Shown one piece after another: positions 1,034-12,098 of a stretch of 15,147 nucleotides of DNA. The position numbers and the translations under genes are program-made. Each line of letters begins with the position of its first letter. The first letter of the stretch is position 1. The notes under the pieces were generated by a model, which searched no databases, was not told the DNA's origin, and worked only from the letters and a program-made list of their open reading frames with translations. Origin of the DNA: a virus (Duplodnaviria; Heunggongvirae; Uroviricota; Caudoviricetes); the IMG/VR virus record IMGVR_UViG_2837719392_000001. One strand, written 5' to 3'.

Positions 1034-1522
1034 TTGAAAGTTTCTCGCATTTTTCTGGCTTTGATGTGCGCAGGAATGCTTGTAGGATGTACAGACTATA
1101 GTTTGCCAAAAGTGGCACCAGGAAATCCACAGATAATCAGAGTATCAGAACCGGATTCCAAGATGATGTTGACGCAATCAGCGACATCCATTTTGACAGC
1201 CTGTTCATCTCTGAATTCTCAATTGCTTGTGTATCTGGAGGATACAGTCAAACCTACAACAGAAATGAAGACATCGTTGGAAAATGGTATCAATACGGCA
1301 CTTGATTCCATTACACAGACAAAAGATGAATTAAATGCTGTTCATGTGGCAACAAGTTGTCAGGACAAACAAAAAAGCATTGTTACATTAGCTAATAGCA
1401 TGATAAAGACATTGAACTCGATGCTACAAGCTATTGATGAAAATAACTTTACTGAATTGAAGCAATTACAGACTCAATTCAATAATGACGCAACACAAAT
1501 GCAGTCATATTCAATTAATTAG
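1034..1522 (+). CDS. Lipoprotein, helical-bundle type, 162 aa (TTG start)
   Basis: GGAGG RBS, basic N-terminus, hydrophobic core, lipobox LVGC, amphipathic helices. Confidence 0.85.
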   Translation: MKVSRIFLALMCAGMLVGCTDYSLPKVAPGNPQIIRVSEPDSKMMLTQSATSILTACSSLNSQLLVYLEDTVKPTTEMKTSLENGINTALDSITQTKDELNAVHVATSCQDKQKSIVTLANSMIKTLNSMLQAIDENNFTELKQLQTQFNNDATQMQSYSIN

Positions 1523-1534
1523 AAAGGACAAGGT

Positions 1535-6703: not shown

Positions 6704-6732
6704 TTGAAAAATTTAGGAAAATATGTTATAAT
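6704..6732 (+). promoter_or_regulatory. Strong sigmaA promoter at the head of the non-coding region
   Basis: TTGAAA(6704-6709)-17 nt-TATAAT(6727-6732) with TG extended -10; no ORF with an RBS follows. Confidence 0.8.
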
Positions 6733-6738
6733 AACAAA

Positions 6739-6875
6739 TGAAAGAAAGGAAGTGTACCAATATTAATTTATTTTAATTAAAACAGCTTTAGAATCTGCCA
6801 TATAACAATTAAAGCTAAAAAATATGTTATGAATCAAGGTACACTATGACTTCTTTTATAGAAGTCTTTTTCTTT
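6739..6875 (+). ncRNA. ~135-nt structured small RNA or attenuator leader
   Basis: Bracketed by the promoter and a terminator (GACTTCT/AGAAGTC + TTTTTCTTT, 6848-6875). Stems AGTGTACC(6751-6758)/GGTACACT(6838-6845) and AGCTTTA(6784-6790)/TAAAGCT(6810-6816). Confidence 0.55.
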
Positions 6876-6892
6876 ATCAATTTTATAAAGGT

Positions 6893-6992
6893 TTCATTCA
6901 CACCTGGAGATAGTGTTTCTCAATTTATCTGTCTGGAAAGGAGGATTAAAGACAAGACAGGAGATGAAGTGAATGGGGTTTTATCAGCCCAC
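6893..6992 (+). ncRNA. Structured RNA element (long imperfect hairpin), possibly a 5' part of the downstream large RNA
   Basis: TTCATTCAC/GTGAATGGG, TTTATCT/AGATGAA and CTGTCT/AGACAG nested pairings; loop contains GGAAAGGAGG. Confidence 0.35.
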
Positions 6993-7039
6993 ATAGAATT
7001 TGTAATCTGCGGAAAAACTTATGCCTGTATTGTATAATT

Positions 7040-7530
7040 TCTGGCTCCCAGGACATTATATAGTGCAGGGTTAACATAAGGGCAAGACCAATGAGATACA
7101 ACCAACCTCCATCATGTCTAAAGTTGGTTTCTATGAAAATCGATACTGATATTCTAGTTGCTATTGGTGTATAGGATGTTGAGCTCGTAAACCCTCAAAG
7201 CCTAGATGGCGAGGTGGATAAGATATCCTATATTGTTAAAGTCTAGATAATGCCTGGTGAGTTCTACCATGTGATATTTATATTGCTAAAATGACGGCGT
7301 GGAAGATGGTACCAGCAGACGAGGGAGGTCTGGACTGGTAGGGGGCAGTTCCCTTTTTGAAGGTGTTTTGGAAACCCATGGAAGCATGGCAAAAGTCATG
7401 TAACTGTAACTGAGAAAACCTCGCGACGACTGACCGACCGACGGAATACTCAATCCCTAGATGAGATAGTTTATCTATCTCCGTGTTTGATAGACCAATG
7501 CGTCTAGTCAAACCCTAGGGGGATTTTTTT
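7040..7530 (+). ncRNA. Large ornate non-coding RNA, probably ROOL class (boundaries approximate)
   Basis: ~43% GC by hand count in a ~30% GC window, with no credible ORF. Many helices and long-range pairings (7170-7179/7223-7232; 7209-7215/7418-7424; 7311-7320/7328-7339) and a 3' multibranch domain ending in a T-run. Motif order resembles ROOL sequences as I recall them; not verified by alignment. Confidence 0.6.
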
Positions 7531-7538
7531 ATTTACAA

Positions 7539-7690
7539 GGGTGCTTCCTGCTCAGAGCTTCTCTCCCTCTAGAATGAAAGGTGGGAACGAGCCCCTGTTT
7601 TTATCGAATGTTTTTATAAATTATGTAAGAACAGTTAGGGCAATGGCGAGCTTCCTTGGAAGCTCTGGGTGGGAGCACCTCCGTGCTCTA
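7539..7690 (+). ncRNA. 6S RNA-like long hairpin with central bubble
   Basis: ~21-bp closing stem 7540-7561/7659-7679 with 3 G-U pairs favouring the plus strand; central bubble; apical stem GCCC-CTGTTTTT/AAGAACAG-TTAGGGC; alternative release-type hairpin 7648-7654/7659-7665. Confidence 0.45.
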
Positions 7691-7714
7691 CTTTAATGCA
7701 AAAGTTGGCTTTCG

Positions 7715-7870: not shown

Positions 7871-8100
7871 TATTCTTATATAATAGAAATATTCTTCTCT
7901 TACATCAGTAAAAGTTGTTTACTTTTGTAATATATTTCTTCTTATGTAATAGTAAAAGTTATTCACTTCTGTAACAGAAAAGTTAATTCATACATAAAGA
8001 GAAAAGTTTGATAGGGTTTTGATAGATTTTAGATAGTATTATTTTTTCTTTTGTATATAAATATAAGTTAAATAGATTATAATTAGGTTTTATAAGGTAT
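7871..8100. repeat. Very AT-rich region with iteron-like direct repeats; putative origin or protein-binding array
   Basis: ~20% GC. AGTAAAAGTTGTTTACTTTTGTAA(7907-7930) vs AGTAAAAGTTATTCACTTCTGTAA(7951-7974); AGAAAAGTT at 7976 and 8000; TTCTTAT(A/G)TAATAG at 7873 and 7939. Confidence 0.5.
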
Positions 8101-8124
8101 TGCACTTATAATAGAATAATAGTT

Positions 8125-8165
8125 TTCTCAGAGAAGGTTACAGAGGCGTTCTCATTCTCAGAGAA
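8125..8165. repeat. Two copies of the palindrome TTCTCAGAGAA
   Basis: Exact copies at 8125-8135 and 8155-8165 (30-bp period). Confidence 0.7.
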
Positions 8166-8371
8166 TACTTTTTTTGTCTATATAATTCAAGTTATGCTTG
8201 AGTTGGGAGCATATAGTGAGGGTTTTATAGGAGTGATTATTAACATAAATTAACAAAAATAAGTCACATCTCAAGTTATACTTGAATAAGACAGAAAATA
8301 TATCTTTTGTTGGGATGTTTATCAAGATTATTTTGAGTATTGTTTTAGAAAACAGATGTTTTTGTTAGTTT

Positions 8372-8401
8372 TTCTCATAACATTAGTAATAGTGGTATAA
8401 T
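8372..8401 (+). promoter_or_regulatory. Antisense promoter into the 3' end of the 8428-8616 ORF
   Basis: TCTCA(8373-8377)-18 nt-TATAAT(8396-8401) with TG extended -10. Confidence 0.55.
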
Positions 8402-8425
8402 AAAAGAGCAGGGACAAGTCCCCGC
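8402..8425 (-). terminator. Terminator of small ORF A
   Basis: Minus-strand GCGGGGA-CTTG-TCCCTGC followed by TCTTTT, 3 nt after the stop. Confidence 0.65.
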
Positions 8426-8427
8426 GT

Positions 8428-8616
8428 TTATTGCCTTTTCTGGCTCTTGTAGAATGTATCTACTAAATTGATTGTTACATCGGCAGTGATTGTAAGAACT
8501 AATGTGTCGAGAGGTAACATTTGTAGTGTTGTGAGCCATTCTATGATGTCCACTAAAATAATGAACAGAATGGCTTTCCAACTTTTCTTCAAGGCAGACA
8601 ACAGTCTGCTTGCCAT
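8428..8616 (-). CDS. Small hydrophobic peptide A (62 aa), type I toxin-like
   Basis: GGAGG SD sequestered in a 9-bp hairpin (8630-8638/8647-8655); hydrophobic helices; basic C-terminus; own promoter and terminator. The SD-ATG spacing is long (13 nt). Confidence 0.55.
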   Translation of the reverse strand: MASRLLSALKKSWKAILFIILVDIIEWLTTLQMLPLDTLVLTITADVTINLVDTFYKSQKRQ

Positions 8617-8656
8617 AAAGACATTTTCACCTCCGTCGTTTGGAAGCGACAGAGGT

Positions 8657-8696
8657 ATTTTATTATATATATAAGTTAAATTCAAGTTATGCTTGA
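8657..8696 (-). promoter_or_regulatory. Promoter of peptide A with the operator over the -35
   Basis: TTGAAT-17-TAAAAT on the minus strand; palindrome 8682-8696 overlaps the -35. Confidence 0.65.
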
Positions 8697-8901
8697 GTCT
8701 AGACTGCATAAAAAGAGCTTATATAGATATAAAGTTGTCTATAGCGTATGTTCAATACAAGTTTATACTTTAAAAATACCTATAACACCATCTTTTTTTG
8801 TATGTGAGTTAGCTTAGACTAATATAGTTTGAAGAGCGTTGAGGAACCCCGTTATCGACGGTGTTATGAACAGTGTTATATGTTAAAGAGACAACATTCA
8901 T

Positions 8902-8941
8902 ACAAGTTATACTTGAATATGCCTACATTATTACATAAAAT
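8902..8941 (+). promoter_or_regulatory. Promoter of peptide B with the operator over the -35
   Basis: TTGAAT(8913-8918)-17-TAAAAT(8936-8941); palindrome 8902-8916; leader hairpin GCGTACCAG/CTGGTACGT follows. Confidence 0.65.
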
Positions 8942-8974
8942 AAAAGCGTACCAGCTCTAAATATATCTGGTACG

Positions 8975-9178
8975 TTGGTGATTATTATTTTAGGCGGTTG
9001 TTCGCAGGTACTTTTTCATATGTGCCTTCAATTCGCTATTCAATATATCACCGATATATTCCACCTCAATGACTACCAAGGAATTGTCGTGGAAGTTATC
9101 GTGATTGCAATGGTGAATATTGTTGTCATAATAATTAACAATTTAAGAAATGACACTGGACAACAGGCCGAAAAGTAG
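8975..9178 (+). CDS. Small hydrophobic peptide B (52-67 aa, start uncertain), type I toxin-like
   Basis: Strong TM segment IVVEVIVIAMVNIVVIII; promoter upstream; weak hairpin plus T6 downstream; no clear SD (possible starts TTG 8975, GTG 8978, ATG 9020). Confidence 0.5.
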   Translation: MVIIILGGCSQVLFHMCLQFAIQYITDIFHLNDYQGIVVEVIVIAMVNIVVIIINNLRNDTGQQAEK

Positions 9179-9206
9179 GGAACATACAAGATTTCCCCGC
9201 TTTTTT

Positions 9207-9235
9207 ATTATAGCATAATAAATAGTATATTGAGA
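9207..9235 (-). promoter_or_regulatory. Antisense promoter into the 3' end of the 8975-9178 ORF
   Basis: Minus-strand TCTCA-18 nt-TATAAT with TG extended -10; same geometry as 8372-8401. Confidence 0.55.
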
Positions 9236-9247
9236 GGTTTTGTCTTA

Positions 9248-10573
9248 TTAAACATATGGTGTAATCAACCAATCAATCAAATTAATAGATTTAATACCAT
9301 CATAAGAAGTATCTAAGCCTGTATTTAAAGAAAGAACAATTTTTTCATAGTTATCCTTTATTTTTTGAAGTGGTGTTAATTCTCTATCTCGTACTTCTTC
9401 ACTTTCCATTGATTCAGTAACTTGAATATAAAGTTTCTCATCAGTCTTGGTGGCGATAAAATCTACTTCTAAATTGTCAACCTTTCCTATAGAAACATCA
9501 TAACCTCTACGAAGCAACTCTAAATAGACAACATTTTCTATAGCATGTCCACTATCTCTGTTTCTGACACCTAACAGGTAATTTCTAAGTCCAATATCAA
9601 CGATATAGTATTTACCAAGTGTTCTTAAGAATTCTTTACCTTTGATATCAAATCTTTTGATATCATAAAAAAAGTATGATTCTAACAATGCATTTATATA
9701 AGCTTGAACCGTATGAGTACTTGGATTACCTTTTCGTTTCCCATCCTCAAGAAGCCCTTCATTGACTAGAGTGTTACCAATAGAAGAAACAGAAATATTG
9801 TTGCCTATATTATCTGCTAAAAATAGAATAATCTTTTTTAGAAGAACTGGGTCAGTAATTCTTTTTTGTCCTCTTCGATTTTCTCTCTCAAGAATATCTC
9901 TCATAATAACCGTAGAATAAATACCCTCAAGTAATACAAATGCTTTTTCTTGGTCAAGTCCTACATCAGCAATACCTGGCATTCCACCAAAACGCATATA
10001 AGCTTCAAAAAGTTCTTGAAGGTCATAATATTCCCCGTTTTTATCAACAACTTGTTTGCGCGTGCCTCCTAAAGCACTTTTTCTTTCCCTAACTTCGAAA
10101 TCATGAAATATTATAAATTCCATAAATGATAGAGGTAATACCTTAATTTCTATACATCTTCCTGACAAATAAGTTGCATATTCAGAGGAAAGCATATAAG
10201 CATTAGAGCCAGTTACATAGATATCGCAATTGAAATCAACACGGAAAGAGTTAATAGCATCTTCCCAGTTTGGAACTCTTTGTACTTCATCAAAGAAAAG
10301 ATACATTCTTTTGTTAGGTATAATGTGTTGTTTAACATATTCATAGAAAGATTCACTATTCATATCCTTATAGGCATGAGATTCAAAATTCATTTCAAGT
10401 ATCTGGTCATCATTAATCCCGCTTTCTTTTAAATGTAGAATCATAAGCTTTAATAGACTGGATTTTCCACATCTACGAATTCCTGTTACGACTTTGACAG
10501 GCTCAGTGTCTTGAAATGCTATGATTTTATTCAAATATAAATCTCTTTTTTTGAGTTTATGACTATCAATCAT
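9248..10573 (-). CDS. AAA_14-family ATP-binding protein with C-terminal DUF4143 domain, 441 aa
   Basis: Walker A GIRRCGKS, Walker B FFDEVQ, TGSN motif, FGGMP, C-terminal ENVVYLEL...EVDFIA; GGAGGT RBS. Confidence 0.9.
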   Translation of the reverse strand: MIDSHKLKKRDLYLNKIIAFQDTEPVKVVTGIRRCGKSSLLKLMILHLKESGINDDQILEMNFESHAYKDMNSESFYEYVKQHIIPNKRMYLFFDEVQRVPNWEDAINSFRVDFNCDIYVTGSNAYMLSSEYATYLSGRCIEIKVLPLSFMEFIIFHDFEVRERKSALGGTRKQVVDKNGEYYDLQELFEAYMRFGGMPGIADVGLDQEKAFVLLEGIYSTVIMRDILERENRRGQKRITDPVLLKKIILFLADNIGNNISVSSIGNTLVNEGLLEDGKRKGNPSTHTVQAYINALLESYFFYDIKRFDIKGKEFLRTLGKYYIVDIGLRNYLLGVRNRDSGHAIENVVYLELLRRGYDVSIGKVDNLEVDFIATKTDEKLYIQVTESMESEEVRDRELTPLQKIKDNYEKIVLSLNTGLDTSYDGIKSINLIDWLITPYV

Positions 10574-11789: not shown

Positions 11790-11940
11790 ATGAAAAGATA
11801 CGGATATGTCCAAGTTTCAAGCAAGGACCAGAATATAGCAAGGCAGAAAGAGGCCCTGCTTTTTATAATATCTACATAGATAAGCAATCGAGTAGATAAG
11901 CAATCTGGAAAGGATTTCAATAGAGATGAGTACAACAAAG
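11790..11940 (+). pseudogene. Serine recombinase (resolvase) N-terminal remnant
   Basis: MKRYGYVQVSSKDQNIARQ matches the YxRVS..Q...RQ motif with R>Q. IYIDKQSGKDFNR lies in another frame. A 13-bp tandem duplication (TAGATAAGCAATC, 11877/11893) and truncation are present. Confidence 0.8.
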
Positions 11941-12098
11941 ACTGTAAAGAGTAAGGTGTTCTACAGTCTTTTTCACACAGTATTAATAGATATCATGTTA
12001 AATTTGTTAACATCTTTAATATTTATGATTAGAAAGAAAGCTATTCTTTTAACTATGTTATACTTTTTCTGATTACTGTAGCTAATGAAAGGTATATT

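What the first reader, a model, noticed from the sequence alone, without database searches (positions are those of the whole stretch)
8372..9235. Mirror-image pair of small-peptide/antisense cassettes (type I toxin-antitoxin-like) under one operator
Seen: two divergent cassettes share the same parts in the same geometry. Each has a palindrome over the -35, then TTGAAT-17-TAAAAT, a 9-bp leader hairpin (which hides GGAGG in cassette A), a 50-65 aa hydrophobic ORF and a GC hairpin with U-tract. Just beyond each lies an opposing promoter TCTCA-18-(TG)TATAAT whose transcript begins AAAA(G/A)AGC(A/G)GGGA. The two peptides are barely similar, yet the regulatory scaffold is conserved. Knowledge: convergent 3'-overlapping antisense RNA with an occluded SD is the txpA/RatA-type type I TA layout. 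Inference: a duplicated addiction or abortive module, unusually with operator-controlled toxin promoters, next to a putative origin.
Basis: partly seen in the sequence, partly recalled or inferred. Interest (0 to 1): 0.75.

Follow-up and report, generated by a model that had tools for sequence, protein, structure and literature searches.

The report
Repressor-gated antisense-paired small peptide cassettes
A large phage-like mobile element from a chicken-gut bacterium carries two (three in a sister genome) copies of a compact module: a small membrane-peptide gene behind a shared operator, faced by a strong opposing promoter. The layout is that of RNA-controlled (type I) toxin-antitoxin systems, but the peptides belong to no known family and nothing has been shown experimentally.

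Summary

- **Operator:** the 14-bp palindrome CAAGTTATRCTTGA occurs 4 times, against 0.41 expected.
- **Opposing promoters:** two of only four TGNTATAAT sites in the 15-kb window are these promoters.
- **Third copy:** a sister genome (G001) has a third cassette, C, with the same architecture.
- **Coding:** the ORFs are real genes. B aligns with C at E 6e-5, and one further homologue (P0008) is about 45% identical to B.
- **Rarity:** only these members turned up in searches of 5.8 billion clustered proteins and 1.84 billion cluster representatives. None hits Pfam, NCBIfam, PHROGs or PADLOC.
- **Peptide shape:** each has one predicted membrane helix. AlphaFold2 predicts a two-helix hairpin for B.

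My refinement is that each "leader hairpin" is followed by a U-tract on the opposite strand. The antisense RNA may therefore span the whole ORF (about 260-325 nt). The claim that the ribosome-binding site (SD) is hidden is uncertain.

The best reading is a repressor-gated, cis-antisense-controlled membrane-peptide module that works like a type I toxin-antitoxin system (confidence 0.5). It sits in an accessory or defence region of a large phage-like element. Membership of a known toxin family failed every test. Toxicity, the transcripts and the regulator remain untested.

This scan had already noted the same operator array here and on a near-identical element in another genome.

The parts
8372..8401 (+). 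Opposing (antisense) promoter of cassette A: TTCTCA-18-TGgTATAAT. The predicted start lies at the base of the terminator complement (about 8407-8409).
   Evidence: 10/12 match, TG present; one of 4 TGNTATAAT sites in the window; inverted repeat I1 with 9194-9235.
8408..8425 (-). Intrinsic terminator of the cassette A mRNA (GCGGGGAC-UUGU-CCCUGC plus UCUUUUAUUA).
   Evidence: z -2.45.: -11.8 kcal/mol on the sense strand against -7.8 on the antisense strand.
8428..8616 (-). ORF A, 62 aa, a small hydrophobic peptide with one predicted membrane segment (ILFIILVDIIEWLTTLQML).
   Evidence: 19-residue hydropathy maximum 1.98. Only weakly alignable to B, C and P0008. No BLASTP hit to B or C.
8589..8624 (-). 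11-codon upstream ORF in the A leader (MSLWQADCCLP). Its ATG is 5 nt after GGAGG, and it overlaps the ORF A start out of frame.
   Evidence: Read from the sequence. Not tested further.
8630..8655 (-). Cassette A hairpin (CCUCUGUCG/CGACGGAGG) containing the SD GGAGG. On the + strand the same hairpin is followed by UAUUUUAUUAUAU, making it a candidate terminator of the antisense RNA.
   Evidence: (z -3.9 on the + strand).
8657..8696 (-). Sense promoter of A (TTGAAT 8685-8680, 17 nt, TAAAAT 8662-8657) with operator O3 (TCAAGTTATGCTTGA, 8682-8696) over the -35.
8846..8880 (.). Spacer between the cassettes holding 12-nt repeats (GACGGTGTTATG-like). It is expanded by 96 nt, to about 10 copies, in G001; L133 aligns with the same ~80-nt offset at this point.
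8902..8941 (+). Operator O4 (ACAAGTTATACTTGA, 8902-8916) over the -35 of the B sense promoter (TTGAAT 8913-8918, 17 nt, TAAAAT 8936-8941).
8947..8974 (+). Cassette B hairpin (CGUACCAG/CUGGUACG), ending directly at the TTG start. On the minus strand it is followed by CUUUUAUUUUAU.
8975..9178 (+). ORF B, 67 aa (TTG start; an alternative ATG at 9020 gives 52 aa). It has a strong membrane segment (GIVVEVIVIAMVNIVVIII) and a predicted two-helix hairpin.
   Evidence: hydropathy maximum 3.01. (B vs C, E 6e-5). (P0008, 43-45% identical). (helices 5-29 and 33-66, pLDDT 72.5).
9170..9206 (+). Terminator of the B mRNA (GAAAAG-GGGAA...UUCCC-CUUUUUU).
   Evidence: (z -3.4).
9207..9236 (-). Opposing (antisense) promoter of cassette B: cTCTCA-18-TGcTATAAT.
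   Evidence: (I1).
8187..8201 (.). Operator O1. The 20-mer 8184-8203 is identical to 8679-8698 (O3). No ORF follows it.
8271..8285 (.). Operator O2. The 17-mer 8272-8288 is identical to 8903-8919 (O4). It lies just downstream of a minus-strand promoter-like site, 8325-8297.

Best explanation
Each cassette is a compact convergent transcription unit on a large phage-like mobile element of an Erysipelotrichaceae gut bacterium.

**Sense side.** A sigma-A-type promoter (TTGAAT-17-TAAAAT) has its -35 fused to a 15-bp palindromic operator. It drives a short mRNA for a 62-71 aa peptide with one membrane helix, and that mRNA ends at an intrinsic terminator.

**Antisense side.** Immediately beyond the terminator, a strong extended -10 promoter (TTCTCA-18-TGnTATAAT) fires back into the cassette. 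Its RNA starts at the base of the terminator complement. It most likely runs across the whole ORF and stops at the upstream hairpin, which carries a U-tract on that strand and overlaps the sense -10.

**Inferred mechanism.** An unidentified repressor holds all cassette promoters shut. The constitutive antisense RNA mops up leaky mRNA by duplex formation over the ribosome-binding site and ORF, and by transcriptional interference. When the repressor is lost or inactivated, sense transcription overrides the antisense and the peptide inserts into the membrane. This is how a type I toxin-antitoxin, abortive-infection or addiction module works.

**Shown:** the sequence parts, their non-random repetition in three paralogues, protein-level conservation, and predicted membrane helices.

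**Inferred:** both transcripts and their ends, repression at the operator, peptide toxicity, and the biological role.
For: 1. The architecture repeats in A, B and a third paralogue C in G001: operator, TTGAAT-17-TAAAAT, hairpin, ORF, terminator and opposing TGnTATA(A/C)T.
2. The operator occurs 4 times exactly against 0.41 expected. It has 5 clustered copies in G001 and no clusters in the 400 other Erysipelotrichales genomes searched.
3. Two of the four TGNTATAAT sites in the window are the opposing promoters.
4. The ORFs are coding. B vs C gives E 6e-5 without gaps, and P0008 is 43-45% identical to B, while the ORF DNA is at random identity.
5. The 19-residue hydropathy maximum is 1.9-3.0 in every peptide, and AlphaFold2 predicts a two-helix hairpin for B.
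6. The 3' terminators are more stable on the sense strand (A -11.8 vs -7.8; C -8.6 vs -6.5). The upstream hairpins are followed by U-tracts on the antisense strand in all three cassettes.
7. The context fits. The neighbour matches PADLOC PDC-S01 at E 1.6e-151, and cassette C lies beside a GH25 endolysin and a holin.
8. Published precedents exist for type I modules on prophages (PMC7699646) and for convergent promoters sharing a bidirectional terminator in par of pAD1 (PMC7472228).
Against: - There are no expression or toxicity data.
- No hit to any toxin family and no structural match.
- The peptides are long for type I toxins. B and C have net charge -3 and -4 and no cationic tail, unlike the C. 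difficile toxins.
- B has no SD.
- In A an upstream ORF is better placed to the SD than the main start.
- Only near-identical element copies exist, so there is no covariation test apart from one inner-hairpin swap in the C leader.
- The regulator was not found.
- O1 and O2 are operators without ORFs, so the operator regulon is not purely about these peptides.
Confidence: 0.5

Rival explanations
1. The regulatory design is the same (repressor plus cis-antisense), but the peptides are not toxins. They would be small membrane proteins of the element's life cycle, for example for superinfection exclusion, lysis timing (holin or antiholin-like) or membrane remodelling. The antisense RNA would only sharpen an on/off switch.
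For: - The two-helix hairpin, the 62-71 aa length and a polar tail resemble small phage membrane proteins and holins more than classical 30-50 aa cationic-tailed toxins. The weak BFVD hits include holins.
- Cassette C sits next to the lysis genes.
- A shared operator implies programmed, life-cycle-linked expression.
Against: - A dedicated strong convergent promoter at each copy is typical of toxin control.
- Three diverged paralogues in accessory rather than core positions, with presence varying between element variants, look like dispensable addiction or defence cargo.
- The holin similarity is not significant (E above 1).
Confidence: 0.27
2. The functional products are the RNAs: a pair of fully complementary ~260-nt transcripts, or one structured RNA made from the strong TGnTATAAT promoter. 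The ORFs would be incidental or vestigial.
For: - DNA conservation between cassettes lies in promoters, terminators and the 3' end, not in the ORF bodies.
- B lacks an SD.
- Both RNA ends are hairpins.
- The neighbourhood is rich in non-coding RNA (notes; GC profile).
Against: - Protein-level similarity survives where DNA similarity is gone. B vs C gives E 6e-5, and P0008 was found by profile at E 1.7e-4 and is 43-45% identical to B.
- The frames are open in all copies, with the same pattern of hydrophobic segment followed by polar tail.
- Rfam gives nothing.
Confidence: 0.08
3. This is a DNA-level control region of the adjacent origin-like zone. The operator arrays and convergent promoters would regulate replication or partition, and the small ORFs would be by-products.
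For: - O1 and O2 carry no ORF and lie next to iteron-like repeats and the TTCTCAGAGAA palindromes.
- A variable 12-nt repeat array lies between A and B.
Against: - Cassette C has the same architecture about 3.5 kb away, between unrelated protein genes and far from the repeats.
- The ORFs are conserved as proteins.
Confidence: 0.07

Closest known systems
par of pAD1 (fst RNA I / RNA II) and Fst-like type I loci of Firmicutes
   Same: Convergent promoters, a shared terminator region used by both RNAs, a 5' stem-loop involving the SD, a small membrane peptide, and carriage on mobile elements (PMC7472228).
   Different: - The peptides are not Fst-like: there is no Pfam or NCBIfam hit, and they are 62-71 aa against about 33 aa.
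- A and B have no DRa/DRb-type direct repeats.
- The antisense start abuts the terminator hairpin, so the RNA probably runs through the ORF instead of being a ~40-nt RNA.
- The sense promoter carries an operator.
Prophage type I toxin-antitoxin systems of Bacillus subtilis (txpA/RatA, bsrG/SR4, yonT/SR6) and Clostridioides difficile (CD0977.1/RCd11 and others)
   Same: Small hydrophobic peptide genes on prophages, each with a convergent cis-antisense RNA, present as several diverged paralogues per element (PMC7699646; the B. subtilis systems are from my own knowledge).
   Different: - No sequence relationship.
- The C. difficile toxins have a hydrophobic N-terminus and a lysine-rich tail. Here the membrane helix is C-proximal and the tail is polar or acidic.
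- The overlap here is possibly full-length, not 3' only.
- A shared palindromic operator is present.
LexA-gated type I toxins of E. coli (tisB/istR-1, symE/symR, dinQ/agrB); own knowledge
   Same: Toxin promoter under a protein repressor plus a constitutive RNA antitoxin, giving two-layer control.
   Different: - The operator here is TCAAGT-N3-ACTTGA, not an SOS box. No Cheo box lies in or near the cassettes.
- The regulator is unknown.
- The host phylum and the peptide family are different.
ibs/sib of E. coli; own knowledge
   Same: The antisense RNA covers the entire small ORF, and there are multiple paralogous copies.
   Different: Ibs peptides are 18-19 aa. There is no operator and no relationship in sequence.

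Membership tests
Type I toxin-antitoxin system (generic class) | Small hydrophobic, membrane-targeted peptide | tested here: met
   The 19-residue hydropathy maximum is 1.98 (A), 3.01 (B) and 1.92 (C). AlphaFold2 predicts two helices for B. The lengths, 62-71 aa, are at the upper end of the class.
Type I toxin-antitoxin system (generic class) | Antisense RNA transcribed opposite the toxin mRNA | tested here: inconclusive
   A conserved convergent TGnTATA(A/C)T promoter is present in A, B and C, and candidate terminators exist for it. No transcript data are available.
Type I toxin-antitoxin system (generic class) | The peptide is toxic and the RNA neutralises it | not testable with these tools
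   This needs expression experiments.
Type I toxin-antitoxin system (generic class) | Toxin mRNA folded so that the SD is sequestered | tested here: inconclusive
   GGAGG lies in the 3' arm of the hairpin in A and C. However, the 5' arm starts 2 nt after the -10, so it may not be transcribed. B has no SD.
Fst/Ldr (par-like) | Fst-type toxin sequence (Pfam and NCBIfam models) | tested here: not met
   No hit at E up to 1 in Pfam or up to 10 in NCBIfam.
Fst/Ldr (par-like) | Convergent promoters with a shared terminator | tested here: met
   The terminator is weaker in the antisense direction.
Fst/Ldr (par-like) | Direct repeats giving 5' complementarity (DRa/DRb) | tested here: not met
   A and B have no room for them, because the antisense start abuts the hairpin. 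In C I read a 12-nt leader/tail repeat from the G001 sequence, and it is absent from the variant leaders.
C. difficile prophage type I toxins | Hydrophobic N-terminus plus a lysine-rich cationic tail, 34-53 aa | tested here: not met
   The membrane helix is C-proximal. Net charge is +2 (A), -3 (B) and -4 (C). The family's criteria are taken from PMC7699646.
SOS (LexA)-controlled toxin genes | LexA (Cheo) box at the promoter | tested here: not met
   GAAC-N4-GTTC, allowing up to 1 mismatch, is absent from 8100-9260.
Known anti-phage defence systems (PADLOC) | HMM match of the peptides | tested here: not met
   Only the neighbouring ATPase matches, to the candidate system PDC-S01.

The most novel reading that the evidence does not exclude
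This would be a previously undescribed family of two-helix membrane peptides (four members found in searches of 5.8 billion clustered proteins and 1.84 billion cluster representatives). They would form a mini-regulon on a giant phage or plasmid of gut Erysipelotrichaceae. Several toxin genes would share one palindromic operator, and each would be buffered by its own full-length cis-antisense RNA. The unit is symmetric, with each promoter's -10 encoding the U-tract of the other RNA's terminator. The result would be a repressor-released kill or abortive-infection switch.
Probability: 0.35. Interest if true: 0.65.

Novelty: new variant of a known kind. Interest (0 to 1): 0.5.

Why it matters
If the peptides are toxic and the antisense RNAs neutralise them, three things would follow.

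- It would add a new toxin family to type I systems.
- It would be an early example from Erysipelotrichaceae and their large mobile elements.
- It would show a tidy two-layer design: one shared protein repressor plus a private RNA antidote per copy. That would link killing to the state of the element, such as loss, induction or infection.

The symmetric promoter/terminator packing is also a compact natural design for tightly silenced genes. If the peptides are harmless, this is simply an antisense-regulated set of accessory phage membrane proteins.

Tried and rejected
**Searches for relatives that found nothing useful**
- blastn of 7900-9400 against the phage and plasmid collections gave no match.
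- tblastn of P0008 against the same collections gave no match.
- A DNA search of 81 genomes of the host family found only G001.
- An operator search of 401 Erysipelotrichales genomes found clustered copies only in G001.
- An operator search in viral contigs gave 9 hits, all chance hits inside coding sequence.
- An operator-plus-promoter search in metagenome contigs gave 66 loci. Only L133 and L140 were real, and both come from the same element at 98-99.7% identity.
- A profile search of 61 relatives in six frames found only G001's own B and C.
- The search for related loci with P0008 found nothing in viral or metagenome contigs.

**Ideas tested and rejected**
- Cassettes travelling with the AAA_14 ATPase: the ATPase is 63-88% identical in many unrelated genomes, none of which has the cassettes.
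- A LexA box at the promoters: absent.

**Checks that were uninformative**
- Rfam, at gathering threshold and at E up to 1: nothing.
- ESM Atlas: scores of 0.81 or below.
- BFVD fold search: nothing at E below 1.
- PDB profile search: nothing.

Full report
**1. What is there**

The window is AT-rich, about 23-30% GC around the site. Positions 8372-9236 hold two divergent cassettes.

Cassette A, minus strand:
- Operator TCAAGTTATGCTTGA at 8682-8696.
- TTGAAT (8685-8680), 17 nt, TAAAAT (8662-8657).
- Hairpin 8655-8630, whose 3' arm is GGAGG.
- An 11-codon upstream ORF (8624-8589).
- ORF A at 8616-8428, 62 aa.
- Terminator 8425-8408 followed by a T-run.

Cassette B, plus strand:
- Operator 8902-8916.
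- TTGAAT-17-TAAAAT at 8913-8941.
- Hairpin 8947-8974.
- ORF B at 8975-9178, 67 aa from TTG, or 52 aa from the ATG at 9020.
- Terminator 9170-9206.

An extended -10 promoter points back into each cassette just beyond its terminator. These lie at 8372-8401 (+, TTCTCA-18-TGgTATAAT) and 9236-9207 (-, cTCTCA-18-TGcTATAAT). The two 3' blocks form a 42-nt inverted repeat that is 74% complementary.

**2. Is it more than chance?**

Generic promoter-like sites are at background frequency in this AT-rich DNA (15 found, 14.5 expected). The specific parts are not.
- CAAGTTATRCTTGA occurs 4 times exactly, against 0.41 expected, and 0 of 200 shuffles reach 4.
- TGNTATAAT occurs 4 times in about 30 kb of both strands, and two of those are the opposing promoters.
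- TTGAAT-N17-TAAAAT occurs 3 times, and two are the cassette promoters.
- Terminator-like sites are enriched, with 5 found against 1.2 expected.

Segment-wise identity between cassettes is significant only in two places. One is the operator/promoter (z 3.0-4.5). The other, for A-B only, is the last 45 nt of the ORF plus terminator plus opposing promoter (z 5.2). Leaders and ORF bodies are at shuffle level.

**3. A third copy and a fourth protein**

The nearest held genome is G001. By its contig title it is a 'Candidatus Massilimicrobiota merdigallinarum' MAG. It carries the region at about 99% identity. It also has a fifth operator about 3.5 kb further on.

That operator heads cassette C (L094, about 1110-1530, minus strand). 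C has the following parts:
- The operator, then TTGAAT-17-TAAAAT.
- A long hairpin whose 3' arm is GGAGG (-25 kcal/mol, z -4.0).
- A 69-75 aa ORF.
- A terminator.
- An opposing TTCTCA-19-TGaTATACT.

The window itself diverges from G001 after about 11177 and lacks C.

Peptide B aligns with C over its full length without gaps (E 6e-5). A does not hit either by BLASTP.

Word-based searches of 5.8 billion proteins returned only self hits and near-identical C variants. A full HMMER scan of 1.84 billion representatives added one member. This is P0008, 67 aa, found at E 1.7e-4 and 43-45% identical to B. It comes from a single 710-bp contig.

The ORFs are therefore protein-coding and form a very small family. 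A is at best a divergent member.

**4. The peptides**

Each has a segment above the usual membrane-helix threshold on a 19-residue hydropathy window: A 1.98, B 3.01, C 1.92. Net charge is +2, -3 and -4 respectively.

AlphaFold2 on the B/C/P0008 alignment gives two helices, 5-29 and 33-66, with mean pLDDT 72.5.

No family matched in Pfam, PHROGs, PADLOC or NCBIfam. The PDB profile search, BFVD and the ESM Atlas also gave nothing useful.

**5. RNA geometry, a refinement**

The 3' terminators are stronger on the sense strand (A -11.8 vs -7.8; C -8.6 vs -6.5 kcal/mol). They are good sense terminators and poor barriers to the antisense RNA.

The antisense start, about 7 nt after TATAAT, falls at the base of the terminator complement. 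That would give the RNA a 5' hairpin.

On the antisense strand each "leader hairpin" is followed directly by a U-rich tract:
- A: UAUUUUAUUAUAU
- B: CUUUUAUUUUAU
- C: CUAUUUUAUUAUUUUUUU

In each case the U-tract is the complement of the sense promoter's A-rich spacer and -10.

The simplest reading is an antisense RNA of about 260 nt (A, B) to 325 nt (C). It would cover the whole ORF and the ribosome-binding site and end inside the sense promoter. A short RNA stopping at the shared terminator, as in par of pAD1 (PMC7472228), cannot be excluded.

SD occlusion in the mRNA is uncertain for three reasons:
- In A and C the CCUC arm begins 2 nt after TAAAAT, so a normal start site would omit it.
- B has no SD.
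- In A the SD is better spaced to the upstream ORF (5 nt) than to the main ATG (13 nt).

The only covariation-like signal is in the C leader. There the inner hairpin differs between G001 (AUAUUGUU/AACAAUAU) and the other variants (GUUGUCU/AGACAAC), while the outer stem is invariant.

**6. Context**

Earlier notes of this scan describe a large gut mobile element with its own dnaE and a non-coding RNA island at 6704-7690. I did not re-test those claims beyond the GC profile and a negative Rfam search.

- The right-hand neighbour (9248-10573, minus strand) is an AAA_14/DUF4143 ATPase. It matches the PADLOC candidate defence system PDC-S01 at E 1.6e-151.
- This ATPase is 63-88% identical in many unrelated genomes, and none of them has the cassettes.
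- On metagenome contigs cassette C always sits between paralogous 209-224 aa genes. Once it lies next to a GH25 endolysin and a holin.
- No SOS box is present.
- The regulator that would bind the operator was not found. The only other site in G001 has one mismatch and is at chance level.

**7. Interpretation**

The layout works like a type I toxin-antitoxin system with an added protein-repressor layer. I give this 0.5.

The main rival keeps the same regulation but assumes non-toxic phage membrane proteins (0.27). RNA-only and origin-control readings are less likely because protein-level conservation survives where DNA similarity is gone, and because cassette C lies away from the repeats.

Membership in Fst, in the C. 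difficile family or in any other known toxin family was tested and not met. I therefore file it as a new variant of a known kind, pending experiments.

**8. Limits**

- All element copies found are at least 98% identical, so comparative power rests on three paralogues.
- The window's own assembly is not held.

Noticed in passing
window 8187-8201 and 8271-8285: Two further exact operator copies (O1 and O2) form a divergent pair 84 bp apart with no credible ORF. O1's 20-mer equals O3's, and O2's 17-mer equals O4's. O2 lies just downstream of a good minus-strand promoter-like site (TTGATA-17-TATATT, 8325-8297). The operator regulon therefore includes something other than the peptide genes.
   Followed up: partly
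window 8125-8135 and 8155-8165: A second palindrome, TTCTCAGAGAA, occurs twice, 30 bp apart (0.64 matches expected). Its half-site TTCTCA is identical to the -35 of the opposing (antisense) promoters of A and C. This may be a second regulator site or a coincidence.
   Followed up: partly
window 8846-8880; L001 2845-2976: A variable 12-nt tandem repeat (GACGGTGTTATG) lies between cassettes A and B. The window has about 2-3 copies and G001 about 10 (a 96-nt expansion); L133 aligns with the same ~80-nt offset here. Apart from four nearby point changes, this is the only difference between the window and G001 across 8000-9300.
   Followed up: partly
window 9248-10573 (-): The AAA_14/DUF4143 ATPase matches the PADLOC candidate defence system PDC-S01 (E 1.6e-151). 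It is 63-88% identical in Lachnospiraceae, Oscillospiraceae, Veillonella, Phascolarctobacter and even Bacteroidales MAGs, so the gene looks highly mobile between lineages.
   Followed up: partly
window 11790-11960 (+): These are broken remnants of a serine recombinase. The N-terminal piece MKRYGYVQVSSKDQ... gives a weak Pfam Resolvase hit (E 0.02). A stop follows, then a frame-shifted ...IYIDKQSGKDFNRDEY... piece. The remnants lie just past the point (~11177) where the window and G001 diverge.
   Followed up: partly
L094 368-1033 (-) and 1575-2249 (-); L096-L102: Cassette C is always flanked by paralogous 209-224 aa genes with no Pfam, PADLOC or PDB match. They share an N-terminal ...F(L/F)I(M/V)GSDSR(E/D)TF... 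motif.
   Followed up: partly
L096 1018-1278; L140: One variant of cassette C has a 4-nt deletion in an A-run near the 3' end of the ORF, giving a frameshifted 86-aa product (P0006). This is either natural slippage-type variation or an assembly error.
   Followed up: no
window 7040-7700: A block of 36-48% GC sits in DNA that is otherwise about 23-30% GC, downstream of a near-consensus promoter (6704-6732). Rfam gives no hit. Earlier notes of this scan already describe it as an uncatalogued large structured RNA.
   Followed up: no
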